A stretch of 64,000 nt of DNA from Chitinophagaceae bacterium (GTDB lineage: Bacteria; Bacteroidota; Bacteroidia; Chitinophagales; Chitinophagaceae), in NCBI GenBank assembly GCA_051004255.1, contig JBPCKN010000012.1, positions 23,119-87,118 on the forward strand. The letters are read 5' to 3'. Positions within the stretch are counted from its first letter, which is position 1. Each line of letters begins with the position of its first letter. A program made the position numbers and the translations under genes. Shown here one piece after another: positions 51,905 through 63,795 of the stretch. Under the pieces are notes generated by a model. That model saw nothing but the letters and a program-made list of their open reading frames with translations. It ran no database searches and was not told the DNA's origin.

Positions 51905-53584
51905 ATGGCAGACAATGTTTTTGATGCGATTGTAATAGGCAGCGGTATCAGCGGCGGCTGGGCTGCAAAAGAACTTTGCGAAAAAGGTTTAAAAACAATT
52001 ATGCTCGAACGCGGGCGCAACATTGAGCACATAAAAGATTATGTAAACGCAAATAAAGAAGCGTGGGATTATCCGCATCGCGGCACGCGAACACAACAAA
52101 TGATAAAAGATTATCCTGTGCTGAAACGCGATTATCCTTTAAACGAAACTAATTTGGATTATTGGGTAAAAGATAAAGAATGCCCTTACACAGAAATAAA
52201 ACGCTTCGATTGGTTTCGCGGTTATCATGTTGGCGGACGCTCGCTAATGTGGGGCAGACAAAGCTATCGCTGGAATGATATGTATTTTGAAGAAAATGCA
52301 AAAGACGGAATTGCGATTGACTGGCCTGTGCGCTACAAAGAGATTGAGCCTTGGTATGATTATGTTGAAAAATTTATTGGCGTAAGCGGCAATAAAGATG
52401 GAATTCCGCAATTGCCCGATGGTCAATTTATGCCACCGATGGATATGACCTGTGTTGAAAAAGATGTTGCTGCGCGAATTAAAGATCATTATAAAGGAAC
52501 GCGTGCAATGGTTATCGGTCGTACGGCAAATATTACCGAACCTTTGCCGGGGAGAACTAATTGCCAGTTCAGAAATAAATGTTGGCTGGGATGCCCGTTT
52601 GGCGCATATTTCAGCACACAATCATCAACGTTGCCTGCCGCAATGAAAACAAATAATTTAACGCTTCGTCCGTGGGCAATCGTTACAAAAATTTTGTACG
52701 ATAAAGATAAAAAGCGCGCGACCGGTGTAGAGATTTTAGATGCAGAAACAAATAAAACATATCAATATTTTTCAAAAATTATTTTCTTAAATGCATCAAC
52801 ATTAAACAGTGCATGGGTTTTAATGAACTCCGCAACTGATGTGTGGCCCGATGGTTTAGGAAGCAGCAGCGGTGAGCTTGGTCATAACATTATGGATCAT
52901 CATTTAAATGTTAGCGCGGGCGGAATTGTGGAAGGTTATGAAGATAAATATTATTATGGTCGTCGTGCAAATGGCGTTTACATTCCGCGCTACAGAAATT
53001 TCTTTGGTGATAAAAGAGATTATCTGCGCGGCTTTGGTTACCAGGGCGGCGGCAGCCGCGCAGGCTGGAGCCGCGATGTTGCTGAATACAATATTGGTGC
53101 AGATTTAAAAGATGCATTAACCGAGCCGGGTCCATGGACAATGGGCATGGGTGGCTTTGGAGAAACCTTGCCTTATCATGAAAATAAAGTAACACTTGAC
53201 AAAACTAAAACGGATAAATGGGGATTAAACATTTTAGCGTTTGATGTTGAGTTAAAAGAAAACGAATTGAAAATGCGCAAAGATATGCTTGCTGATGCAA
53301 TCGAAATGCTCGAAGCAGCCGGCGTAAAAAACGTAAAAGGCAGCGATACGAATCCATATTTGGGTCGTGGTATTCATGAAATGGGTTCAGCACGCATGGG
53401 CGCAAATGCAAAAAAATCTGTGCTTAATAAATGGAATCAAGTTTGGGATGCACCAAATGTTTTTGTAACCGATGGTTCGTTTATGGTTTCAGCAGCTTGC
53501 CAAAATCCTTCGCTTACTTACATGGCGTTTACTGCGCGTGCAGCAGATTTTGCTGTGAAGGAAATGAAGAAGATGAATATTTAA
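51905..53584 (+). CDS. GMC-family FAD oxidoreductase (paralog 1)
   Basis: FAD fold DAIVIGSGISGGWAAKEL and a C-terminal HEMGSARMG active-site region. Confidence 0.85.
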   Translation: MADNVFDAIVIGSGISGGWAAKELCEKGLKTIMLERGRNIEHIKDYVNANKEAWDYPHRGTRTQQMIKDYPVLKRDYPLNETNLDYWVKDKECPYTEIKRFDWFRGYHVGGRSLMWGRQSYRWNDMYFEENAKDGIAIDWPVRYKEIEPWYDYVEKFIGVSGNKDGIPQLPDGQFMPPMDMTCVEKDVAARIKDHYKGTRAMVIGRTANITEPLPGRTNCQFRNKCWLGCPFGAYFSTQSSTLPAAMKTNNLTLRPWAIVTKILYDKDKKRATGVEILDAETNKTYQYFSKIIFLNASTLNSAWVLMNSATDVWPDGLGSSSGELGHNIMDHHLNVSAGGIVEGYEDKYYYGRRANGVYIPRYRNFFGDKRDYLRGFGYQGGGSRAGWSRDVAEYNIGADLKDALTEPGPWTMGMGGFGETLPYHENKVTLDKTKTDKWGLNILAFDVELKENELKMRKDMLADAIEMLEAAGVKNVKGSDTNPYLGRGIHEMGSARMGANAKKSVLNKWNQVWDAPNVFVTDGSFMVSAACQNPSLTYMAFTARAADFAVKEMKKMNI

Positions 53585-53656
53585 AAATAAGAATTCAAAA
53601 GTGAAAAGTAAAATTAAGGTTTTTAAATTTTGATTTTTTACTTTTTAATTTAAAAT

Positions 53657-55390
53657 ATGCCCGGCGATACAACCAGCATAAACATCAATTCCGGCGGCGT
53701 TGAAAAAAATACGTTCGATGCAATTGTTATTGGCAGCGGTATTAGCGGCGGTTGGGCTGCAAAAGAACTTTGCGAGAAAGGATTAAAAACTTTGGTGCTC
53801 GAGCGTGGAAGAAATGTGGTGCATAACAAAGACTATCCCACTGCAATGCTTGCTCCGTGGGAGTTTCCGCATCGCGGAGAAATGACAAGAAAATTTGTTG
53901 ATGAAAATCCTTTAATAACGCAAGCCGCAGGTTTCGACGAATCAACTGCACATTTTTTTATTCGCGATAAAGATCATCCTTACATTCAGGAAAAACCTTT
54001 TGAGTGGATTCGCGGTTACCAGGTTGGCGGCAAATCAATTATTTGGGGCAGAGCCTGTCCGCGCTGGAGCAATTATGAATTTATAAATCCCGCGCGTTAT
54101 GGTTATGGAATTGAGTGGCCAATAAATTATGAAGATATTGCGCCTTGGTATTCGCACGTGGAAATTTTTTCGGGAATTTGCGGCAACAAAGATGGTCTTG
54201 AAGCAATGCCCGACGGCGAATACCTTCCGCCGTTTGAATTTAACTGTGTTGAAAAAGATCTAAAGAAAAAAATAGCCGATAATTATAAAGACCGGTTTAT
54301 GATTCAGGGTCGCTGGGCGCAATTAACACAACCAAAACAAATTCATTTACAACAAGGCCGTGCACAGTGCCAGGCACGCGACCTTTGCATGCGCGGATGC
54401 CCGTGGGGCGCGTATTTCAGCTCTGTTTCATCCACATTACCTTGGGCTGCAAAAACAGGAAATTTAACGGTGCGTCCTTTTTCCGTTGTGCATTCAATTA
54501 TCTATGATGAAAAAAAAGATAAAGCAATTGGTGTAAGAATAATTGATACGAACACAAAAAAATCAACCGATTATTTTTCCAAAATTATTTTTGTAAATGC
54601 ATCTGCATTAAACAGCAATCTTGTTTTGCTGAATTCCACTTCTAATCGCTTTCCAAACGGTTTTGGAAATGATAACGGATTGCTTGGCAAATATGTTTGT
54701 TTTCAAAATTATCGCGGCTCTGTTCACGGCACAATTGACGGCTTTGAAGATACATATTATTACGGTCGCAGACCTTCAGAATGTATGATGGCAAATTTCA
54801 GAAACTTCAAAAAGCAAGACACCGATTTTGTTGGCGGATACATGGCGTTTATGGGTTGTTATCGCAATCGTGGTGCAGGCGATAAATTAGATGTGCAAAT
54901 TGGTGCAGATTATAAAGAAGCGATGAGCGAAGCCGGCGGCTGGGAAGTTTACATGTACATGCAAGGTGAAACAATACCGAAAGAAACGAACCATGTAAGT
55001 TTAAGCAAAATAGAAAAAGATCAGTGGGGAATTCCGTTGCTTGTTACAACAGTTGGTTACGATGATAATGATGAAAAATTATTGAATGATTTTCTAACGC
55101 AGGGCGAAGAAATGTTTGATAAATGCGGCATAAAAAATATTACACATAACGATAATCATTGGGCGCCGGGAAGGGATATTCACGAAATGGGCGGATGCAG
55201 AATGGGCAAAGACCCTAAAACTTCTTTGCTCAATAAATGGAATCAATTTCATAACTGCAAAAATGTTTTTGTAACCGATGGCGCCTGCATGACGAGCACT
55301 GCAAACCAAAGTCCTTCTATTTTTTATATGGCATTAACTGCAAGAGCTTGTAATTATGCGGTGGATGAATTGAAGAAAGGGAATATTTGA
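53657..55390 (+). CDS. GMC-family FAD oxidoreductase (paralog 2)
   Basis: The N-terminal block FDAIVIGSGISGGWAAKELCEKGLKT is identical to paralog 1. HEMGGCRMG is present. Confidence 0.85.
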   Translation: MPGDTTSININSGGVEKNTFDAIVIGSGISGGWAAKELCEKGLKTLVLERGRNVVHNKDYPTAMLAPWEFPHRGEMTRKFVDENPLITQAAGFDESTAHFFIRDKDHPYIQEKPFEWIRGYQVGGKSIIWGRACPRWSNYEFINPARYGYGIEWPINYEDIAPWYSHVEIFSGICGNKDGLEAMPDGEYLPPFEFNCVEKDLKKKIADNYKDRFMIQGRWAQLTQPKQIHLQQGRAQCQARDLCMRGCPWGAYFSSVSSTLPWAAKTGNLTVRPFSVVHSIIYDEKKDKAIGVRIIDTNTKKSTDYFSKIIFVNASALNSNLVLLNSTSNRFPNGFGNDNGLLGKYVCFQNYRGSVHGTIDGFEDTYYYGRRPSECMMANFRNFKKQDTDFVGGYMAFMGCYRNRGAGDKLDVQIGADYKEAMSEAGGWEVYMYMQGETIPKETNHVSLSKIEKDQWGIPLLVTTVGYDDNDEKLLNDFLTQGEEMFDKCGIKNITHNDNHWAPGRDIHEMGGCRMGKDPKTSLLNKWNQFHNCKNVFVTDGACMTSTANQSPSIFYMALTARACNYAVDELKKGNI

Positions 55391-55650
55391 TGTGATGATT
55401 TGGTGATGGGAATGATGTGCTATTTTTTCGGAATAATAATAAACATAATCCTTATTGGATTGTGTCTTGAATCTGATCTCATAAGGGAACCTTGTGCATT
55501 ATTCATTATTGTTGTTTCAGTTTTTGCGATATAATCTTTCCTGTGCAATACGCCAACGTTTCAATATTTGGCGATATGAAATTGTCAAAAAAACAAATTG
55601 AACAAACTCCATCACAAAAGTGATTATTTACTGCATTTCTACATGAATAA

Positions 55651-55698
55651 ATTTTAATCTGCACTTCATCTGCTACTTATTTCATCAGTACAATTTTG
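55651..55698 (+). promoter_or_regulatory. Conserved upstream block ATTTTAATCTGCACTTCATC, then 20 nt, then CAATTTTG (site 1)
   Basis: 18 of 20 nt are identical to 56221-56240, with identical spacing to a CAATTTTG box resembling the Bacteroidota -7 element TAnnTTTG. It lies 72 nt upstream of the ATG at 55770. Confidence 0.5.
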
Positions 55699-55769
55699 TT
55701 TTTCAAAGTTTTCGCTAAAATCATTTTTAGGAAATTTTGATTTTAAATCATAAAAAAAAACAAATTATT

Positions 55770-56216
55770 ATGCCTAAGCATCATGAAAAAAAACCACATC
55801 AAAAAGCAGTGGGTTTACAGTTAATTGGTAAATCTGATGAACTGATTAACTTATTAATTACTGAGCCTGAAAAAAGAGAGTGGGCTATTGAGCAGGTAAC
55901 CAATGAAGGTCCTGAGCACAAACAAGTATTTAGCGCCTTGCTTTTAAATCGAATGTTCAAGCTTGTTCAATTAATCGAAGAAAAAACAAATGTTTCTTTC
56001 GCAGCACAAAAAGGAAATGAAATTATTTCGAAAAAAAATGAGGATGAATTCATCATTCCACTGCAGCTGCTGGCAACTGCTCTTAAAAAAGAACAAACAG
56101 AAGACGTTTTAAAAATTTTATCTCATGCGCCGGAACATGAGTTGATTGCTTTTACTGCTTTGCTACAAGCAACAGAATGGAGTATTAAAGCAATAGAAAA
56201 AGAAAATAAAATATAA
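55770..56216 (+). CDS. Hypothetical cytoplasmic protein with a His/Lys-rich N-terminus
   Basis: 148 aa from the ATG at 55770 (MPKHHEKKPHQK...). No family recognised. Confidence 0.5.
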   Translation: MPKHHEKKPHQKAVGLQLIGKSDELINLLITEPEKREWAIEQVTNEGPEHKQVFSALLLNRMFKLVQLIEEKTNVSFAAQKGNEIISKKNEDEFIIPLQLLATALKKEQTEDVLKILSHAPEHELIAFTALLQATEWSIKAIEKENKI

Positions 56217-56220
56217 ATAC

Positions 56221-56268
56221 ATTTTAATCTGCATTTCATGCCATCCTTGTTTGCAAATTTCAATTTTG
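56221..56268 (+). promoter_or_regulatory. Conserved upstream block ATTTTAATCTGCATTTCATG, then 20 nt, then CAATTTTG (site 2)
   Basis: Same block and spacing as site 1. It lies 37 nt upstream of the ATG at 56305. Confidence 0.5.
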
Positions 56269-56304
56269 ATTTTATAATATTTATTCACATTAAAAATAAA
56301 AAAA

Positions 56305-57009
56305 ATGAAAAAGTTATTTATGGCAGTTTTAATAACAGCCGCAACAATCGCAACAGTTAATGCACAACCACCTGCGCTGGGCGCTCCGCCGTCACCAAGA
56401 CCAGATGCTCGGGGTATTCGACCGCCTCATCCACCCCGCGGCGAACAATTACAACCGGTAAGTCAATTTCAGGGAAGAGTTGTTAAGATTAGTGTAAACG
56501 ATGATTATGTTTACGATGGTTTTTACATGCTTACCGGAAGTGATAGTGTACTGGTAAAATTTCCGCCGCATCTTGGTTCACAAATTACTTCATCAATAAA
56601 AAATGGTTCAAGCGTTACTGTGAACGGTGTGATGAATTATTCACCATTTGGCGAAAAGGAAATAAAAATGGTTAGCATAAATGCAAACGGCCAAACAATT
56701 TATGATGCGCCGCCCGCTGCAACACCCATTGCAGTTTCTGAAAAATTTATTAATGGAAGCGGAACAATCAGCAATACACAAACTGACCGCGAAGGCAGAA
56801 TAAATGGTTTTATTTTGAATGATAACGCCATTTTGCGCATCCCTCCTGACGTTATTTACCAATTATCAGTCACGGCTAAAACCGGCGCTACCATTGACTA
56901 TACAGGCACGTTAAAACAATTGCAGACCGGCGAAGTGGCTGCAGGTAATTACAAAATTGTGCATTGCAACACAATTAAAATTAACGGGCAGCAATATCTT
57001 GTAAGATAA
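56305..57009 (+). CDS. Secreted protein with a Pro-rich linker and two copies of an uncharacterised domain carrying an FPPH/IPPD motif
   Basis: Signal peptide MKKLFMAVLITAATIATVNAQ and linker PPALGAPPSPRPDARGIRPPHPPRG. The internal repeats are centred on LVKFPPHLGSQI and LRIPPDVIYQL. Confidence 0.6.
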   Translation: MKKLFMAVLITAATIATVNAQPPALGAPPSPRPDARGIRPPHPPRGEQLQPVSQFQGRVVKISVNDDYVYDGFYMLTGSDSVLVKFPPHLGSQITSSIKNGSSVTVNGVMNYSPFGEKEIKMVSINANGQTIYDAPPAATPIAVSEKFINGSGTISNTQTDREGRINGFILNDNAILRIPPDVIYQLSVTAKTGATIDYTGTLKQLQTGEVAAGNYKIVHCNTIKINGQQYLVR

Positions 57010-57015
57010 TTTTTT

Positions 57016-57054
57016 AAAAGAGGTAAGGCAAGATGCTTTACCTCTTTTTATTTT
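57016..57054 (+). terminator. Strong rho-independent terminator after the 56305 gene
   Basis: AAAAGAGGTAA / TTACCTCTTTT: a perfect 11-bp stem with an 11-nt loop, followed by TATTTT. Confidence 0.8.
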
Positions 57055-57071
57055 CGACCAAAAATTTAATT

Positions 57072-57434
57072 ATGAAATCGCTATCTACAATTGGGCTACT
57101 TTTTTTATCCAACACATTTATGACGTTTGCCTGGTACGGACATTTAAAATACTTCGGAAAAGGCACCACCACTTCTTTGTTTTTAATTATTCTTATTAGC
57201 TGGGGTATTGCTTTTTTTGAATACTGTTTTCAGGTGCCTGCAAACAGAATTGGTTTTGCAGAAGAAGGCGGTCCGTTTTCGCTTGTGCAATTAAAAGTGA
57301 TTCAGGAAGTAATTACGCTTATTGTTTTTGTTATTTTCTCTGTGGTGATTTTCAAAAATGTTCGCTTTACAACTAATCATTTTATCGGCTTTGGCTTTTT
57401 GGTGGCTGCGGTTTATTTCATATTTAAATCATAA
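57072..57434 (+). CDS. DMT-superfamily small membrane protein (DUF486-like)
   Basis: 120 aa from the ATG at 57072, with 4 TM segments and the FMTFAWYGHLKY N-terminal pattern. The longer ORF-track start would lie inside the terminator hairpin. Confidence 0.65.
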   Translation: MKSLSTIGLLFLSNTFMTFAWYGHLKYFGKGTTTSLFLIILISWGIAFFEYCFQVPANRIGFAEEGGPFSLVQLKVIQEVITLIVFVIFSVVIFKNVRFTTNHFIGFGFLVAAVYFIFKS

Positions 57435-57460
57435 CGAAAAATTTTTAAACCTGTTGCAAA

Positions 57461-58732
57461 ATGAACAAAACGCAATCTATTCAATTCAAAAAACATAAGG
57501 TTATTTGGCCGCTCGAGTCACTAAACTTTTTCATGGCCGATATGCAGGCAGGAATTGGGCCTTTTTTGGGAATATTTCTTTTGGCACATGGCTGGAAAAG
57601 TGGACCCATCGGTTCTGTAATGACCATCGGCGGCGTTGCCGGAATGTTAATGACAGCACCTGCAGGTGCATTAATTGATGCAACAACGCGTAAACGCATG
57701 TATGTTGTTATATCAGGAATATTTACGGTTATTGCTTCAGCGTTTATACTTCTCTCACAAAATTTTTGGATAGTAAGTATATCGCAAGTGGCAACAGCTA
57801 TTGCAGGCTCTGCGTTAGGACCGGCTGTAATAGGAATAACGCTTGGTATTGTTAAACAGGCTGGCTTTAATCGTCAAAATGGTCATAATCAGGCGTTCAA
57901 TCATGCAGGCAATGTCGCCGGCGCAGCGCTATCAGGTTATTTAGGTATGAAATTCGGGATGCCCGCCATTTTTTATCTCGCCGCAGTTTTTGGTGTGTTA
58001 TCCATCATATCTATTTTAATGATTCCTGGCAAAGCAATAGATAACAAAGCAGCACGTGGTTTAAAAGAAAATGGAGAAGATAATAAAGCAAGCGGTCTTC
58101 AAGTGTTATTCAAATGTAAGCCACTGCTAATATTGGCTGCGGCTCTTGCTTGTTTCCATTTAGGAAACGGTGCTATGTTGCCGTTATATGGTTTAGCCGC
58201 TGCTTCAAAGAATCAAGGAAATCCCACTGTTTTTGTAGCCATGACAATAGTTATTGCACAAGTGGTTATGATTTTTGCATCCATCATTGCTATGCGCATG
58301 GCTGAAAAAAGCGGGTACTGGCTTGTATTGTTTATTTCATTTATAGCACTTCCTATACGCGGTTTTATTGCAGCCCACATGATTAATCAAACAGGTGTTT
58401 ACCCCGTTCAAATACTGGATGGTATAGGTGCCGGATTGCAAAGTGTTGCCGTTCCAGGATTGGTTACGCGTATTTTAAATGGTACCGGACGGGTTAATAT
58501 TGGTCAGGGCGCTGTGATGACGGTGCAAGGGCTTGGAGCATCGTTGAGCCCTGCTATTGGTGGATGGATTGCGCAAGGCATTGGCTATCGTTTAACCTTT
58601 ATGATTTTGGGCAGCTTTGCAATCATTTCAATTTTATTATGGCTGATATTTTCTTCTACTATTAGGTCCGCCTCCGATAATACGCGGGCAAATAATAATA
58701 GTAAAAATGGAGATAAAAAAGTTAAGAAGTGA
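57461..58732 (+). CDS. MFS transporter
   Basis: About 12 TM segments, 423 aa, with the loop motif DATTRKR between TM2 and TM3. Confidence 0.8.
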   Translation: MNKTQSIQFKKHKVIWPLESLNFFMADMQAGIGPFLGIFLLAHGWKSGPIGSVMTIGGVAGMLMTAPAGALIDATTRKRMYVVISGIFTVIASAFILLSQNFWIVSISQVATAIAGSALGPAVIGITLGIVKQAGFNRQNGHNQAFNHAGNVAGAALSGYLGMKFGMPAIFYLAAVFGVLSIISILMIPGKAIDNKAARGLKENGEDNKASGLQVLFKCKPLLILAAALACFHLGNGAMLPLYGLAAASKNQGNPTVFVAMTIVIAQVVMIFASIIAMRMAEKSGYWLVLFISFIALPIRGFIAAHMINQTGVYPVQILDGIGAGLQSVAVPGLVTRILNGTGRVNIGQGAVMTVQGLGASLSPAIGGWIAQGIGYRLTFMILGSFAIISILLWLIFSSTIRSASDNTRANNNSKNGDKKVKK

Positions 58733-58872
58733 ATAATCACAAAAAATAAAAGCTATCAAAAAATCAAAGAAATTTATTTATACTTTAATGAATGCAGGAG
58801 TCGCTTTAATTACTTTTATTAAAAACACCGATACATAAAAATGTTTTATGAAGATTTATAAAAACGATTTTT

Positions 58873-59655
58873 ATGAAATTATCTCAGCAAACTACAATAA
58901 AAATTATCTTGATTGCTTTGTCCATCTTAATTCTATTGTATATTTCAGAACCAGTTATGTTTAATATTCCTCCGCATAGTAAAAATCTTCTTTGGATAGT
59001 TTTTATTATCTCCGGATTATTATTACTGCTTACCTACATCAATCCGAAAAAACCTCCTGCCCCGCCTTTGCTGCCGCACAATACTTTACCGCAACCTTCA
59101 GGCGAAATAAGCGGAACTGTTGTAGAATATGGCAGCAACGCTATTGGTGATATTGATAAGATTTTATTGCAGCAAAGCAATCAAAAAATATGGTTACATT
59201 TTCCACCGCACACTGCGCAACAGGTCATGAATATAGCTATAAAAAATACTACTATATACGCAACTATTGATAATGGCAAAAAGCCGCCGCATGATAACAG
59301 TATAATGTATGAATTAATTTCATTGCGGTCAGATGCATTGGGTAAAATAATTAATGTGCATGATATTCCGCCGCCTCCGCCAATGCAAGGAAATGAAGTG
59401 GAAGTAAAAGGAAATAACATTCAATTAAAATTAGACGACAAGGGAAACGCTGCAGCATTTATTCTATCAGGAAAGTTAATTGAGTTTCATCCGCATACAG
59501 CAGAAACGTTATTGCCTTTGATGAAACAGGCACATGAAATTATTGTACGCGGTTACGAACGCAGCCCATCTGATGGTTTTGTAAATAATACCGGATTGCC
59601 TTTTATAAAACCTTCTGTTATTACGATTGATAATATTAATTATGTGATACAATAA
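58873..59655 (+). CDS. Membrane-anchored paralog of the 56305 protein (two TM helices, Pro-rich linker, two FPPH/FHPH domains)
   Basis: TM helices IKIILIALSILILLYI and LLWIVFIISGLLLLLTYI, then linker PKKPPAPPLLPHNTLPQP. The repeats are centred on WLHFPPHTAQQV and LIEFHPHTAETL. Confidence 0.6.
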   Translation: MKLSQQTTIKIILIALSILILLYISEPVMFNIPPHSKNLLWIVFIISGLLLLLTYINPKKPPAPPLLPHNTLPQPSGEISGTVVEYGSNAIGDIDKILLQQSNQKIWLHFPPHTAQQVMNIAIKNTTIYATIDNGKKPPHDNSIMYELISLRSDALGKIINVHDIPPPPPMQGNEVEVKGNNIQLKLDDKGNAAAFILSGKLIEFHPHTAETLLPLMKQAHEIIVRGYERSPSDGFVNNTGLPFIKPSVITIDNINYVIQ

Positions 59656-59660
59656 ACAAA

Positions 59661-60344
59661 ATGAAAATACTGATCGCAGAAGATGAAGAAAAACTTGCAG
59701 CTTTTATACAAAAAGGATTGCAGCAGGCAGGGCATGTAGTGCAGCAATGCAATAATGGTTCGCAGGCTTTGGAAAAAGCTGCATCAGAAAATTTTGATTT
59801 GATATTGCTCGATTTGATGATGCCCGGCGCCAATGGTTTTGAAGTGCTGAAAAATCTTCGTGCCTTTAAAATTCAAACACCGGTGATTATTGTAAGCGCT
59901 TTGAGCGATACGCAGCAAGTAGTGCAGGGGCTTGACCTTGGCGCAGTTGATTATATAAAAAAACCTTTTGAATGGGAGGAATTGCTGGCACGCATAAGAA
60001 TTCTGCAGCGAAAATTATTTTCATCAGAAAGTACAAAAATTTGTATTGATGATTTGATAATTGATTTAATGAGTCGCAAAGTGGTAAGAGGAGAAAAAGA
60101 AATAAACCTTACCTCAAAAGAATTTGTGTTGCTCGAATATCTTGCCCGCAATGCAAACCGCGTGATAAGTAAAAATCAAATACTGGAAAATGTATGGGAA
60201 ATGGATTTTGATCCCGAAAGCAATATTGTAGAAGTGTATATGTATCAATTGCGAAAAAAAATTGATAAAGGCTTTGATAAAAATTTAATAGAAACCATTG
60301 TTGGTGCTGGTTATAAGCTGAAAGGAAATAAATCATCACTTTGA
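59661..60344 (+). CDS. OmpR/PhoB-family response regulator
   Basis: Receiver domain (DLILLDLMMPG) and a C-terminal winged-helix DNA-binding domain (LTSKEFVLLEYL...VGAGYKL). Confidence 0.9.
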   Translation: MKILIAEDEEKLAAFIQKGLQQAGHVVQQCNNGSQALEKAASENFDLILLDLMMPGANGFEVLKNLRAFKIQTPVIIVSALSDTQQVVQGLDLGAVDYIKKPFEWEELLARIRILQRKLFSSESTKICIDDLIIDLMSRKVVRGEKEINLTSKEFVLLEYLARNANRVISKNQILENVWEMDFDPESNIVEVYMYQLRKKIDKGFDKNLIETIVGAGYKLKGNKSSL

Positions 60345-61669
60345 AAAAAAGATTTTCATATCCTTTTTACCATAGCCTTCGCTTTCGGTTCGGGTTAATT
60401 TTCGGCTTATTATTTTTATTCTTTTTATTGGGGATTGTTTTTTTTCTTTATTCAAACGTAAAATATCAACTTGAAAAAAGTTTTGCAGACAGATTAAAAA
60501 GCCAGGCAAACATTGTTTTACAAAAGACGGAGATAAGCCCGTTAACCATTCCATTGCCGCAGGAAAAAGAATATTTTTTACTCACTTATAATAACGGCAA
60601 GCAATCAGACACGCTGTTTAACAATCTGCCTTTATCTGCAAAATTATTATCTGCACAAAACCCGCGAGTGCAGTTGTGGCGCGCTTTATACGTTTCACGG
60701 ATATTAGAAACGGGCGGCATAATAAATATATGGTATGCCTTGTCTGCAAATGAATTAAATAAAAATCTTGAACAACTTCGGTTGGTATTATTTATTTATA
60801 TTCCATTGTCGCTTTTTATTTCTTTTATTGCAGGATATTTTTTATCGGGATTTTTATTACAACCTATTCATCACATCATCAGCAAAGCAAACGATACAAG
60901 CTTGCAAAATGAAATACAACTTTTAAAGGAGCCCAAAACAAAAGATGAACTGCATCATTTATCTGTTGCATTAAACCGTATGCTGGAAAGAATACAAAAA
61001 CAATCGCAGCAGCAAAATGCTTTTTTTGCATCAGCATCACACGAATTGCGAACACCGTTAAGCGTGATGCTCACTGAATTGCAGGTGTTGCAAATGAGTA
61101 ATACGTCACTCGAAATAAAATCAATTTTGCAAAATCAAATAGCAGCGGTTCAACGATTAAATAAATTAGTGAATGATTTTTTACTGATGAGCCAATTAAA
61201 ATCGGGCACGCTGATGTTGCAAAAAGAAAATGTAAATATTGTTGAGTTGGTAACAGACAGCTCAGAAAGATTAATGAATAAAATGCAGCAACAATTTCTT
61301 TCTTTAAAAATAAATCTGCTGCCGGTGGATGGCAATTTTGATGTATGGGCTGATGCAGCGCTGCTACAAATAATTATTTTTAATCTTATGGAAAATGCAG
61401 CAAAGTATGCAAAGGCGCAAACACTTATTGAAATTACTATTAAGCAAATTGACAAAAATATTTTATTCAATATATCTAATACAACTGATAAAGAAATTAT
61501 CAATATTGAAAAACTTACGGATGAATTCAAAAGAGAAGATGATTACAAGGAAGGTTTTGGTTTAGGTTTATGGATAGTGAAGCAGCTAATTGTTTTACAT
61601 GATGCAAAATTTAATTTGTTATATATCAACAGAACTTTTATGGCGGAGTGGATAATGAAAAAGAAATAA
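60341..61669 (+). CDS. Sensor histidine kinase
   Basis: Two TM helices flank a ~120-aa periplasmic loop. H-box SHELRTPL, N-box NLMENAAKY, and G-box GFGLGLWIV are present. It overlaps the regulator gene by 4 nt. Confidence 0.88.
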   Translation: MKKRFSYPFYHSLRFRFGLIFGLLFLFFLLGIVFFLYSNVKYQLEKSFADRLKSQANIVLQKTEISPLTIPLPQEKEYFLLTYNNGKQSDTLFNNLPLSAKLLSAQNPRVQLWRALYVSRILETGGIINIWYALSANELNKNLEQLRLVLFIYIPLSLFISFIAGYFLSGFLLQPIHHIISKANDTSLQNEIQLLKEPKTKDELHHLSVALNRMLERIQKQSQQQNAFFASASHELRTPLSVMLTELQVLQMSNTSLEIKSILQNQIAAVQRLNKLVNDFLLMSQLKSGTLMLQKENVNIVELVTDSSERLMNKMQQQFLSLKINLLPVDGNFDVWADAALLQIIIFNLMENAAKYAKAQTLIEITIKQIDKNILFNISNTTDKEIINIEKLTDEFKREDDYKEGFGLGLWIVKQLIVLHDAKFNLLYINRTFMAEWIMKKK

Positions 61670-62736
61670 GGTAACTACACAGTAAAAGGGCGAATCTTTT
61701 TATTAAGTTTTTTAAAATGTAATAAAGTAATTCCTCTACAATTACAGATGTATCACCATTATAATAAGTAAGGTGGCAATAATTTGCAAGTGCAGTCAAG
61801 TATTCTGATCGCTATGTTCAATTATTTACTCTTGCTTTTAAGGACTTGGTATTAGCGAGAAAAGCAGGAACAATGTCAAATCAATAATACAAAATAATAG
61901 AAGCCATTGTTATTTTTCTTTAGAGAAATATGTATTTTAAATTACTTTGTCCGTATACGCGTACCAAAGCTTTTATTTTTTTTAATAAAAGCTCCCTTTC
62001 ATTATTCATGAATTTGAAATATCCTGCCTCGTGCTCTTATACGTTGTAAAGACATTAATGATAAAGATGATACACCGTTAGGTAATACAAAAATCGATAT
62101 TGAGAATCATAAGGTCATTTAATAATCTACTCTTGACTGGCTATCCGCAATGAGTTTCAGAATGAGAGCGCCTGCAATAAAAACGGCTATAACAGAAAAG
62201 GCAGGCAGATTTTTTTTGTTCAATGATTTCTTTTTCATACGCTTTTCATTTTAATAAACAGAATAAAAAATATCGGAAAAAATTTTATTTTTTTATAAAA
62301 TTAATATTTTATTGATAATTTTTTAATTATGAATTTTTTTATTCCCTTTTTTATTATTTCATTCAAGGTAATTGAAAAGGAATTACTCACTTCATATCAG
62401 AAATCGTTCTAAAATTTTAATAAATATGTGCAAAAAAAAAATATTTTAAAAAGAATCCTTTATTTAAAAAATGCAGTACCTTACAATATATTTTCTAACG
62501 ATAATCAATATTTTTTGTTCACTGGTAACTCAACATTAATAGCGAATATGTATGTTGAGTTTTGATACTCGAAACGTAAATATTTTTTCTCTGATTTGTG
62601 TGAAATTAATGATGAACTTGCCTAAACGTTTCCACTTCAATTGGTAAAAAGATGGTTAGTAAGGATGTAGCAAATTGTTGAAAAGTTGATTTTCGCTAAT
62701 CGCTCAAACATTTATTCATCACATAAAATTAAACCC

Positions 62737-63795
62737 ATGGCTACAAAATCAGTAACTGGTACAAACTCCGTAAACGATATTCATATCATTTGGCTAACAT
62801 CCGGACTGAGTTGCGATGGTGATTCAGTTGCAATGACTGGGGCAGTTAATCCCAGCCTGGAAGATATTGCATTAGGGGCATTGCCCGGCATGCCCAACGT
62901 TCATATTCATAGCCCGGTGATATCTTATGAAAACGGAGATGAACTTATGCAATGGTGGTATAAAGCGGAAAGAGGAGAACTTGACCCCTTTGTTTTAATA
63001 TTGGAAGGTTCGGTACCCAATGAGGAAGCCATTAAACACACCGGCGGGTATTGGGCTGCTATGGGTACTACTGGCCCCTTTGGTGATCCTATTACTACTA
63101 ATGAATGGATTGACCGGCTTTCAAAAAAAGCAGCCGCAGTTGTGGCCCTGGGCACTTGCGCCACTTATGGAGGGATACCCGCAATGAAAAATAATCCAAC
63201 TGGTGCTATGGGTCTTCCTGATTACTTAGGATGGAATTGGAAGTCGAAGGCAGGCTTACCCATCGTTTGTATTCCCGGATGTCCTGCCCAGCCGGATAAT
63301 ACAACAGAAACACTTTTATATCTTGTTTTCCAATTAGCCGGTAAAGCACCTATGATTCCTTTAGATGATGCATTGCGTCCTAAATGGTTGTTCGATCGCA
63401 CTGCTCATGAAAATTGTGACAGGGGTGCCTTCTACGAACAAGGTGATTTCGGACAAGAATATGGCACACATAAATGTCTTGTACAAATAGGATGTAATGG
63501 GCCTATAGTGTATTGCAATGTCCCCAGGCGTGGTTGGCAAAATGGAATCGGAGGATGCCCTAATATTGGAGGTATTTGTATGGCCTGTACTATGCCTGGA
63601 TTCCCTGATAAATTCATGCCTTTTATGGATGAGGCTATTGGCGCAAGATTTTCTTCTAATTCAGCAAAATTTATATCAGGCCCTATCTTGAGAGTCTTTC
63701 GCAGAATGACTGCTAATAAGAAAGATAAAGAACCTGCATGGAGGAAACCCGGTAAGAAGATCACAAGTGGCTATCAGCCTGCATGGGAAAATTAA
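62737..63795 (+). CDS. [NiFe]-hydrogenase small subunit without a Tat signal, with a Cys-to-Asp variant in the proximal-cluster motif
   Basis: Fe-S ligand pattern: GLSCDGD (instead of CxxC), GTCATYGG, PGCPAQP, HENCDRG, CLVQIGCNGP, C...GGCPNIGGICMAC. No RRxF twin-arginine leader. The ATG at 62737 is preferred. Confidence 0.85.
   Translation: MATKSVTGTNSVNDIHIIWLTSGLSCDGDSVAMTGAVNPSLEDIALGALPGMPNVHIHSPVISYENGDELMQWWYKAERGELDPFVLILEGSVPNEEAIKHTGGYWAAMGTTGPFGDPITTNEWIDRLSKKAAAVVALGTCATYGGIPAMKNNPTGAMGLPDYLGWNWKSKAGLPIVCIPGCPAQPDNTTETLLYLVFQLAGKAPMIPLDDALRPKWLFDRTAHENCDRGAFYEQGDFGQEYGTHKCLVQIGCNGPIVYCNVPRRGWQNGIGGCPNIGGICMACTMPGFPDKFMPFMDEAIGARFSSNSAKFISGPILRVFRRMTANKKDKEPAWRKPGKKITSGYQPAWEN

What the first reader, a model, noticed from the sequence alone, without database searches (positions are those of the whole stretch)
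55651..61669. Candidate uncharacterised envelope-stress or metal-response module: a co-regulated small protein, paralogous periplasmic proteins, two transporters and a two-component system
All genes are on one strand. In order they are the His-rich 148-aa protein, the secreted PPH protein with a strong terminator, the DMT (DUF486) protein, the MFS transporter, the membrane-anchored PPH paralog, the OmpR-type regulator and the histidine kinase with a ~120-aa periplasmic loop. The anchored paralog ends 5 nt before the regulator gene. This recalls accessory periplasmic proteins that modulate sensor kinases, such as the CpxP/Spy or ZraP arrangements. No component other than the regulator/kinase and transporter superfamilies can be assigned a function from sequence.
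Basis: inference. Interest (0 to 1): 0.6.

Follow-up and report, generated by a model that had tools for sequence, protein, structure and literature searches.

The report
Two-component module with tandem OB-fold proteins
This is a real, conserved but uncharacterised bacterial sensing module: a sensor kinase and regulator that appear to switch on essentially one promoter type, driving a secreted double OB-fold protein, and that sit next to an anchored copy of that protein and membrane transporters; what it senses is still unknown.

Summary
Seven same-strand genes lie at the stated coordinates, with the terminator after gene 2 and the 5-nt gap before the regulator.

The "PPH" proteins are true paralogs (hhalign 99.7%, E 7e-26). 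Each is two tandem OB-folds (AlphaFold pLDDT 88). They match no Pfam or NCBIfam family and are not detectably BOF/YgiW.

In 33 of 34 assessable Bacteroidota loci the soluble OB gene sits beside orthologs of this regulator and kinase. DUF486, MFS and ArsB-like permeases recur, also beside OB paralogs in Burkholderiaceae.

The shared upstream block is a conserved operator: four TTnAT repeats phased at 11 bp, at a fixed distance from a Bacteroidota -7 box. It occurs about once per carrier genome (twice here) and always heads the OB gene, or gene 1.

The layout (operator, OB gene, stem-loop, regulator, kinase) mirrors ygiW-qseBC of Pasteurellaceae.

The kinase's periplasmic loop has no conserved His, Cys or Met, so I infer co-sensing through the OB proteins. 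A metal or other cation as the stimulus is a guess.

The module is patchy: 6 of 401 Bacteroidota genomes. I rate it a new variant of a known kind, of moderate interest.

The parts
55642..55683 (+). Operator 1. Four 11-bp-phased direct repeats (ATGAAT / TTAAT / TTCAT / CTTAT), the presumed binding site of the g6 regulator. It is followed by the -7-like box CAATTTTG at 55691-55698.
   Evidence: PWM score 35.3, the top hit in the 3.31-Mb genome. The same box heads g1 homologs in L001 and L005.
55770..56216 (+). g1: a 148-aa cytoplasmic protein of an orphan family. It has an MPKHH N-terminus and invariant GPEHK and APEHE motifs.
   Evidence: 17 clusters in 5.8 billion proteins. No Pfam or NCBIfam hit. 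AlphaFold pLDDT is 66, helical with a beta-hairpin, and there is no fold match. It lies under the box promoter here and in L001 and L005, and directly after the g2 homolog in L003 and L006.
56212..56253 (+). Operator 2, with the same four phased repeats. Its -7-like box CAATTTTG is at 56261-56268. It overlaps the end of g1.
   Evidence: PWM score 32.7, the second-best hit in the genome. The box is conserved upstream of g2 homologs in at least 31 of 38 Bacteroidota loci.
56305..57009 (+). g2: a secreted soluble protein with a signal peptide, a Pro-rich linker and two tandem OB-folds. Its motifs are FPPHLG and IPPD.
   Evidence: AlphaFold pLDDT 88, with two beta1-3/helix/beta4-5 units. Foldseek hits are two-OB SSBs, Teb1 AB and the LysRS OB domain. 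It has 67 close homologs and 1142 representative clusters.
57016..57057 (+). Intrinsic terminator or attenuator after g2: a 15-bp stem, a 3-nt loop and a T-run.
   Evidence: -18.8 kcal/mol. A comparable hairpin follows the soluble OB gene in 26 of 38 loci.
57072..57434 (+). g3: a small DMT-superfamily transporter (DMT_6/DUF486). The ORF opens at 57033, but the likely start is 57072.
   Evidence: Pfam PF04342, E 1e-42. Sequence. Orthologs sit in the module in 11 loci.
57461..58732 (+). g4: an MFS transporter with 12 predicted transmembrane segments.
   Evidence: MFS_1, E 3e-34. It is 60-67% identical to MFS genes on alpha- and betaproteobacterial plasmids, where it is coupled to an ArsB/CitMHS-like permease. 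In L032 an 83%-identical MFS has its own operator.
58873..59655 (+). g5: the membrane-anchored tandem-OB paralog of g2. Its motifs are FPPHTA and FHPHTA. It ends 5 nt before g6.
   Evidence: hhalign of A1 against A3: probability 99.7%, E 7e-26, 186 columns. Orthologs carry one transmembrane helix or a lipoprotein Cys. The gap is shown.
59661..60344 (+). g6: an OmpR-family response regulator with D51 present.
   Evidence: Pfam. The best NCBIfam hit is heavy-metal RR TIGR01387 at 229 bits, below the 279 cut-off. It is 35% identical to QseB. Orthologs are 52-75% identical in 33 loci.
60341..61669 (+). g7: a sensor histidine kinase with TM1, a periplasmic loop of about 100 aa, TM2, then HAMP-HisKA-HATPase. 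It overlaps g6 by 4 nt.
   Evidence: The alignment of 34 orthologs shows no conserved His, Cys or Met in the loop; the conserved features are PLPQ, DTLF and GG.

Best explanation
This is a dedicated two-component module. Its main, perhaps only, output is an inducible secreted tandem-OB-fold protein.

Shown by the data:
- The kinase g7 and the OmpR-type regulator g6 are orthologous across Bacteroidota.
- They are almost always encoded next to a soluble tandem-OB gene.
- That gene is preceded by one conserved operator: four TTnAT half-sites at 11-bp phase, abutting a -7 TAnnTTTG-type promoter.
- The gene is usually followed by a stem-loop.

Inferred:
- Phosphorylated g6 binds the phased repeats as a class-II-type activator.
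- It induces g2 and, in this lineage, the small cytoplasmic protein g1.
- The hairpin keeps read-through into the downstream genes low.
- g5, which is translationally coupled to g6/g7, is made in step with the kinase and acts as its membrane-tethered co-sensor. The basis is that the kinase's own periplasmic loop has no conserved ligand-type residues.
- The induced soluble paralog g2 binds the same ligand in the periplasm, acting as a buffer or chaperone. It thereby also damps signalling (negative feedback).
- The DUF486 and MFS transporters handle the same solute across the inner membrane. In relatives an ArsB/CitMHS-like permease does too.

The ligand is most likely a small cation, with a metal ion my first guess. 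OB paralogs exist in periplasmic, anchored and cytoplasmic versions. Conserved Asn, Asp and His residues lie in loop L12, strand beta2 and the beta3-helix junction, which in OB-folds generally form the ligand-binding face. Linkers in the wider family are His- and Pro-rich. The regulator and kinase score closest to the heavy-metal subfamilies.
For: Synteny:
- regulator and kinase are adjacent in 33 of 34 assessable loci, and the anchored paralog abuts or overlaps the regulator gene in the 11 loci whose coordinates I read.
- Only PPH, RR, HK, DMT, MFS, the ArsB-like permease and g1 recur across genera.

Operator:
- conserved sequence, spacing and distance to TAnnTTTG in at least 31 of 38 loci.
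- only two strong sites in the 3.31-Mb genome, both in this module.
- about one site per genome in 14 of 17 carrier genomes of 4-9 Mb. Where checked it coincides with the PPH promoter. Three genomes gave no exact hit; two of them (L001, L003) have visibly variant boxes.

Other lines:
- Stem-loop after the OB gene in 26 of 38 loci.
- Fold and paralogy.
- Kinase loop without conserved His, Cys or Met.
- Cross-phylum link of the OB proteins with MFS, ArsB-like permease, DMT and metallophosphoesterase, beside a different (sigma-54) two-component system in Paraburkholderia and Caballeronia and in Chitinophagaceae and Mucilaginibacter.
- Cytoplasmic paralogs.
- His-rich linkers.
- NCBIfam best hits.
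- Precedent for the operator, OB gene, attenuator, RR-HK design: ygiW-qseBC (PMC5053249). Precedent for a two-component system whose main target is one periplasmic OB protein: V. cholerae VC1638-39 and vca0732 (PMC5636140).
Against: - There is no expression, binding or interaction data.
- In this genome the transporters and g5-g6-g7 have no operator of their own, so their regulatory link to the system is by position only.
- The regulator and kinase score below the curated cut-offs of the heavy-metal families.
- The motif His is replaced by Asp or Glu in some relatives, and by Asp in g2 domain 2. That also fits a purely structural helix-cap role.
- Spirosoma and the Bacteroidales lack the anchored paralog, so a tethered co-sensor is not essential.
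- In Burkholderiaceae the second paralog is cytoplasmic.
- Read from 58873, g5 has two hydrophobic segments with positive charges at both ends, so its OB domains could face the cytoplasm.
Confidence: 0.5

Rival explanations
1. This is a BOF-like envelope-stress response. The OB proteins do not bind a transported solute. They bind envelope components or cationic antimicrobial peptides, as reported for YgiW/VisP and SipA. The system would then answer membrane or peptidoglycan damage, and the transporters would be bystanders or general efflux.
For: - The architecture matches ygiW-qseBC.
- The polymyxin-induced, two-component-dependent vca0732 is a precedent, and SipA is described as a peptide-binding protein in an abstract.
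- The L12/beta2 motif NDDYVYDGF is rich in acidic and aromatic residues, which could suit cationic organic ligands.
- In Dysgonomonas L009 an outer-membrane beta-barrel gene lies under the operator.
- The kinase loop lacks metal-type residues.
Against: - There is no detectable sequence homology to BOF/YgiW (no Pfam BOF hit in 40 members).
- Cytoplasmic paralogs are hard to fit with an envelope-binding role.
- The tight cross-phylum linkage to three kinds of inner-membrane secondary transporters argues for a solute.
Confidence: 0.22
2. This is a solute acquisition or organic-anion and phosphoester handling system. The MFS, ArsB/CitMHS-like and DMT proteins would import or exchange a metabolite, for example a metal-citrate or phosphorylated compound. 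The OB proteins would serve as periplasmic and cytoplasmic binding proteins, and the system would report scarcity of that compound.
For: - The ArsB-like permease scores best against CitMHS (citrate-metal transporters) and against DASS.
- A cytoplasmic metallophosphoesterase belongs to the module in Mucilaginibacter, Sphingomonas and Caballeronia.
- The module has a patchy, accessory distribution.
Against: - This genome has neither the ArsB-like permease nor the phosphoesterase.
- No catabolic enzymes recur.
- The regulator is not PhoB-like by NCBIfam score.
- OB-folds are not a known class of transporter-docking solute-binding proteins (from general knowledge).
Confidence: 0.1
3. The functional unit here is narrower than the finding. 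Only g1, g2, g5, g6 and g7 work together. DUF486 and MFS are an independently regulated transporter pair that happens to be inserted between them.
For: - There is no operator before g3, g4 or g5 in this genome.
- A strong terminator separates g2 from g3.
- Many loci (Chryseobacterium, the Bacteroidales) have no transporter in the module.
Against: - DMT and/or MFS recur next to the module in at least 12 loci of several genera, in different positions.
- In L032 an 83%-identical MFS located elsewhere in the locus has its own copy of the operator.
- OB paralogs sit beside the same MFS in Burkholderiaceae.
Confidence: 0.15

Closest known systems
ygiW-qseBC (also called ygiW-firRS) operons of Pasteurellaceae and Enterobacteriaceae
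   Same: - A periplasmic OB-fold protein gene sits directly beside an OmpR-family regulator and its kinase.
- The regulator binds direct repeats in the promoter of the OB gene.
- An attenuator stem-loop lies between the OB gene and the regulator-kinase genes, so the OB transcript dominates (PMC5053249).
The layout here is the same: operator, OB gene, hairpin, RR-HK.
   Different: - The OB protein here is a tandem double OB of another sequence family (hhalign against YgiW gives probability 10%; no BOF Pfam hit).
- A second, membrane-anchored paralog is translationally coupled to the regulator.
- Transporters are embedded in the module.
- The regulator is only 35% identical to QseB and scores higher against the CusR/CopR-type models.
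- No acidic EYRDD-type motif is apparent in the conserved features of the kinase loop. I did not search for the motif explicitly.
- The regulon appears to be one or two promoters, not global.
Vibrio cholerae VC1638-VC1639 controlling vca0732 (SipA, BOF family)
   Same: It is a two-component system whose main detectable target is a single periplasmic OB-fold stress protein (PMC5636140).
   Different: The V. cholerae genes are unlinked, on different chromosomes. The inducer there is polymyxin B, whereas the stimulus here is unknown. The OB family is different.
CusRS / CopRS / CzcRS heavy-metal two-component systems with periplasmic metallochaperones (CusF is a small beta-barrel, from general knowledge)
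   Same: They give the best-scoring NCBIfam subfamilies for both regulator and kinase (TIGR01387 at 229 bits, TIGR01386 at 136 bits). They also pair an inducible periplasmic small beta-barrel protein with export functions.
   Different: - The scores are below the curated cut-offs (279 and 293).
- The kinase loop has no conserved His or Met.
- There is no RND/MFP/OMF efflux pump or P-type ATPase in the module.
- The operator differs from the palindromic CusR box, as I recall it; this was not tested.
Accessory membrane-anchored or periplasmic modulators of sensor kinases (YycH/YycI-WalK and CpxP-CpxA; from general knowledge)
   Same: A non-enzymatic extracytoplasmic protein is encoded in the same operon as the kinase. 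In the CpxP case it is also induced by the system.
   Different: The folds are unrelated (OB versus YycH/I or the CpxP helical fold). Any interaction with the kinase here is inferred only.

Membership tests
BOF (bacterial OB-fold; YgiW/YdeI/SipA; Pfam BOF) | Sequence match to the BOF profile or to YgiW | tested here: not met
   No BOF hit among 40 family members at E <= 0.05. hhalign of A1 against E. coli YgiW gives probability 10% over 19 columns.
BOF (bacterial OB-fold; YgiW/YdeI/SipA) | Secreted periplasmic protein with an OB-fold | tested here: met
   g2 has a signal peptide. The AlphaFold model shows two OB units (pLDDT 88), and Foldseek returns OB-fold proteins. It has two domains per chain, whereas BOF proteins have one.
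Heavy-metal response regulators (NCBIfam TIGR01387, cztR_silR_copR) | Score at or above the curated cut-off of 279.2 bits | tested here: not met
   228.8 bits. It is still the best-scoring model.
Heavy-metal sensor kinases (NCBIfam TIGR01386, cztS_silS_copS) | Score at or above the curated cut-off of 292.55 bits | tested here: not met
   136.4 bits, and the match covers only residues 128-421.
Heavy-metal sensor kinases (NCBIfam TIGR01386, cztS_silS_copS) | Conserved metal-ligand residues in the periplasmic sensor domain | tested here: not met
   There is no conserved His, Cys or Met in the loop across 34 orthologs.
PorY family T9SS kinases (NF052314) | Score at or above the curated cut-off of 350 bits | tested here: not met
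   136.9 bits.
OmpR/PhoB-family two-component system | Receiver domain with the phospho-acceptor Asp plus a winged-helix Trans_reg_C domain; kinase with an H-box and an ATPase domain | tested here: met
   Pfam E 2e-31 and 4e-27. D51 aligns with QseB D51. The kinase has HisKA (E 2.5e-14) and HATPase_c.
DMT_6 / DUF486 (PF04342) | Pfam gathering score | tested here: met
   144.9 bits against a cut-off of 25.
ArsB arsenite efflux (for the ArsB-like permease of related loci) | NCBIfam cut-offs (457, 415, 760 bits) | tested here: not met
   175, 144 and 141 bits. CitMHS scores higher in Pfam. The gene is absent from this genome.

The most novel reading that the evidence does not exclude
The PPH tandem-OB proteins are a new family of ligand-binding co-receptors. 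The membrane-tethered paralog presents the ligand to a kinase that has no binding site of its own. The soluble paralog, the system's near-only transcriptional output, acts as an inducible decoy or buffer that closes a negative feedback loop. The same OB family works with an MFS, an ArsB/CitMHS-like permease and a small DMT as a cross-phylum homeostasis system for a solute not yet recognised as having a dedicated system.
Probability: 0.25. Interest if true: 0.65.

Novelty: new variant of a known kind. Interest (0 to 1): 0.5.

Why it matters
The work defines a protein family with no Pfam or NCBIfam model. It has about 1,100 representative clusters at 50% identity. The fold is confidently predicted and the genomic partners are conserved.

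It also gives an unusually clean regulatory case: one operator type, about one site per genome, with a clear half-site structure. That makes the system easy to test with a reporter in culturable carriers, such as Chryseobacterium luteum DSM 18605, Dyadobacter luticola T17 or Spirosoma species.

If the co-sensor and decoy logic holds, it would extend the ygiW-qseBC theme (a periplasmic OB protein plus a two-component system) to Bacteroidota, Planctomycetes and Burkholderiaceae. It would also give a handle on the function of the DUF486 transporters and of the widespread MFS/ArsB-like permease pair.

Tried and rejected
1. PDB sequence search with the family profile found nothing.
2. Pfam and NCBIfam on g1, g2 and g5 gave only sub-threshold OB or DUF6515 noise.
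3. The g1 structure has low confidence (pLDDT 66), and Foldseek found no match with E < 0.25.
4. Literature searches were of little use. The search matched longer names beginning with the same characters, and the two papers I opened concerned DUF4861 and DUF4867. I did not open the other 15 titles. The DUF5666 papers were uninformative by title and abstract.
5. My first whole-genome pattern had one N too many. It hit a site conserved in seven Spirosoma genomes that turned out to be the 5' coding end of a 140-aa ORF (MKKDINF...), not an operator.
6. The extra exact-pattern hits in two Chryseobacterium genomes lack the flanking ATGAAG and -7 features.
7. The weaker PWM hits in this genome (C3:97852, C9:128992) lie inside ORFs or behind them.
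8. The Caballeronia kinase next to the OB genes shares only the catalytic core with g7, so no common sensor domain was found.
10. MFS identity: the only PDB relative is NorA at E 9e-5, and no NCBIfam equivalog was found. The substrate is therefore not assignable.

Full report
OBSERVATION

Pfam and NCBIfam confirm four of them:
- g3 is DMT_6/DUF486 (E 1e-42).
- g4 is an MFS (E 3e-34).
- g6 is an OmpR-type regulator (Response_reg plus Trans_reg_C).
- g7 is a HAMP-HisKA-HATPase kinase.

g1, g2 and g5 match no curated family.

The other stated features also hold:
- The g5 stop lies 5 nt before the g6 ATG, and g6 and g7 overlap by 4 nt.
- A 15-bp-stem hairpin with a T-run follows g2 (-18.8 kcal/mol).
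- The 19-mer ATTTTAATCTGCAYTTCAT occurs exactly twice in the window, before g1 and before g2. It lies within a 70-nt block that is 71% identical.

I make four small corrections:
- g1 is His-rich only at its N-terminus.
- The g3 ATG at 57033 lies inside the hairpin, so 57072 is the likely start.
- The kinase loop is about 100 aa.
- Read from 58873, g5 has two hydrophobic segments.

WHAT THE "PPH" PROTEINS ARE

g2 has 67 close homologs, nearly all from Bacteroidota and unnamed. The alignment shows two repeats with invariant F-P-P-H-x-G, plus an N-D-D-x-x-x-D-G-F hairpin.

AlphaFold on this alignment gives pLDDT 88. The model has two consecutive units of beta1-3, helix, beta4-5. The best Foldseek matches are two-OB SSBs, Teb1 AB and the OB domain of LysRS. 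So the "PPH domain" is an OB-fold.

From the secondary-structure map of the model, the conserved residues lie in loop L12, strand beta2 and the beta3-helix junction. In OB-folds generally these elements form the ligand-binding face. That last step rests on general knowledge, since I could not inspect the model's coordinates.

g5 is a true paralog over both domains (hhalign 99.7%, E 7e-26). Its orthologs are anchored by one transmembrane helix or by a lipoprotein Cys.

The family has about 1,142 representative clusters at E <= 1e-3. Relatives carry 2-4 OB repeats with His- and Pro-rich linkers. The family is not BOF/YgiW by sequence.

SYNTENY

A pattern scan returned 46 genome loci, and tblastn with the seven window proteins gave these results:
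- In 33 of the 34 Bacteroidota loci with enough flank, the soluble OB gene is followed by orthologs of g6 (52-75% identity) and g7.
- Schlesneria (Planctomycetes) has the same trio.
- The anchored paralog is present in 15 loci. In the 11 whose coordinates I read (L001-L004, L006, L007, L010, L011, L013, L015, L016) it abuts or overlaps the regulator gene. I did not tabulate the other four.
- DUF486 and MFS recur: they lie downstream of the kinase in Spirosoma and between the paralogs in Dyadobacter and Flavihumibacter.
- In Ilyomonas, Niabella and L007 a 414-aa ArsB/CitMHS-like permease sits in the same slot. In Mucilaginibacter a metallophosphoesterase does.

An all-against-all clustering of neighbouring ORFs found no other family that recurs across genera.

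The same parts list appears on Paraburkholderia and Caballeronia plasmids. It comprises two FPPHL tandem-OB proteins (one secreted, one without a leader), an MFS about 60% identical to g4, the ArsB-like permease, a small DMT and a metallophosphoesterase. There they lie beside a sigma-54-type two-component system.

The OB proteins are therefore linked to the transporters independently of this particular regulator.

THE OPERATOR

The region upstream of the soluble OB gene is strikingly conserved from Chitinophagaceae to Chryseobacterium, Spirosoma and Mucilaginibacter. The consensus is nATGAAgAAAaaTTAATtTCcnnTTCAtnnnnnnCTTtA, that is, four TTnAT-type half-sites at 11-bp phase. It ends at a fixed distance from a TAnnTTTG-like -7 box.

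The same box also precedes:
- g1 homologs in L001 and L005;
- an 83%-identical MFS placed elsewhere in L032;
- an outer-membrane beta-barrel gene that precedes the OB gene in Dysgonomonas.

A PWM built from 24 boxes finds only two strong sites in the 3.31-Mb genome of this window. Both lie in the module (scores 35.3 and 32.7; the next is 21.9, inside an ORF).

An exact core pattern finds about one site per genome in 14 of 17 carrier genomes of 4-9 Mb. Where I checked the coordinates, it is the OB promoter (the extra hits were rejected). The other three genomes gave no exact hit. Two of them (L001, L003) have visibly variant boxes.

The regulon is therefore tiny and local.

A stable hairpin follows the soluble OB gene in 26 of 38 loci, including those where the regulator gene comes next.

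MECHANISM

Shown: a conserved gene set, a conserved operator-promoter, a conserved hairpin, and intact phosphorelay residues.

Inferred:
- Phosphorylated g6 activates the g1 and g2 promoters from the phased repeats.
- The hairpin limits read-through.
- g5, coupled to g6/g7, serves as a tethered co-sensor, because the kinase loop has no conserved His, Cys or Met.
- Induced g2 buffers the ligand and feeds back on signalling.
- DUF486 and MFS move the same solute.

I favour a small cation, with a metal ion as first guess, for four reasons:
- Paralogs occur in the periplasm, at the membrane and in the cytoplasm.
- Conserved Asn, Asp and His residues lie in the loop and strand elements named above.
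- His-rich linkers occur in the wider family, and g1 carries PEH motifs.
- The regulator and kinase score best against the heavy-metal subfamilies, though below their cut-offs.

This part is weakly supported. The envelope-stress or cationic-peptide reading, as for YgiW/VisP and SipA, remains a serious rival.

COMPARISON WITH KNOWN SYSTEMS

The nearest precedent is ygiW-qseBC of Pasteurellaceae. There a regulator-bound direct repeat precedes a periplasmic OB gene, an attenuator stem-loop follows it, and the regulator and kinase genes come next (PMC5053249).

The present system works like that but is not a member of it:
- The OB family is different and doubled.
- An anchored paralog is added.
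- Transporters are embedded in the module.
- The regulator is nearer to the CusR/CopR type.
- The output is restricted to one or two promoters.

The restricted output also resembles V. cholerae VC1638-39 and vca0732 (PMC5636140).

DISTRIBUTION AND NOVELTY

The family is rare and patchy. It is found in 6 of 401 sampled Bacteroidota genomes and in 5 of 179 genera, and in none of 20 other genomes listed for the window's own family. All parts are single-copy in this genome.

I class it as a new variant of a known kind: a two-component system with accessory periplasmic OB proteins. The OB family itself is undescribed, and the operator is clean and testable.

LIMITS

No multimer prediction was possible. 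The stimulus, the ligand, the topology of g5 and the role of g1 all remain unknown.

Noticed in passing
window 57016-57072: The first ATG of the DUF486 ORF (57033) lies inside the g2 terminator hairpin. The Pfam match starts at residue 19 and a second ATG lies at 57072, so the gene is probably 13 codons shorter than the longest ORF.
   Followed up: partly
window 58873-59050: Read from 58873, g5 has two hydrophobic segments (about residues 9-27 and 40-57) with positive charges at both ends. L003 and L006 share this extension. L001, L002 and L004 have one helix, and Chryseobacterium and L007 have a lipoprotein Cys. The side of the membrane faced by the OB domains in this subclade is therefore uncertain. 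An internal ATG at 58960 would give a single-helix form.
   Followed up: partly
window 57461-58732; L047, L050, L051 (plasmids): The MFS g4 is 60-67% identical to MFS genes on Rhizobium, Sphingomonas, Novosphingobium and Acetobacter plasmids. There it is translationally coupled to an ArsB/CitMHS-like permease. This is unusually high cross-phylum identity and suggests horizontal transfer of the transporter.
   Followed up: partly
L007 (QFQQ01000015.1); P0029; P0050: The record is labelled 'Citrobacter freundii' MAG, yet the contig carries the Bacteroidota-type module and operator. Another homolog is flagged UNVERIFIED_CONTAM under Pseudacidovorax. These look like mislabelled or contaminated bins.
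   Followed up: no
L039, L041, L042 (Schlesneria), about 100 nt upstream of the OB gene: A conserved TTCTCATCTCCCTTTAATGAAG element contains TCAT and TAAT half-sites 11 bp apart. It resembles the Bacteroidota half-sites in the opposite order. Only congeneric genomes were seen, so conservation proves little.
   Followed up: no
window 51905-55390: Two tandem GMC-family oxidoreductase paralogs (559 and 577 aa), with near-identical FAD-binding N-termini, lie directly upstream of the module. Their homologs did not recur next to the module in the other loci clustered.
   Followed up: no
window 61670-62685 and 62686-63795: About 1 kb of very AT-rich sequence (GC 0.25-0.29) with no ORF of 50 aa or more beyond about 61800 separates the kinase from a [NiFe]-hydrogenase small-subunit-like gene. 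The hydrogenase adjacency is not seen in the related loci.
   Followed up: no
L057-L063 (Spirosoma genomes): AAAAATTAATGTCTTTTTTCA is conserved in seven Spirosoma genomes. It is the reverse strand of the first codons (MKKDINF) of a conserved 140-aa ORF, so it is a look-alike of the operator core with no regulatory meaning.
   Followed up: yes
L052 279-815 (Caballeronia), L048 5324-5872 (Paraburkholderia), L032 10650-11201: These are leaderless (apparently cytoplasmic) tandem-OB paralogs. Their inter-domain linker reads EGPEHHEH or EGPQHGDQKHH, reminiscent of the invariant EGPEHK and APEHE motifs of g1.
   Followed up: no
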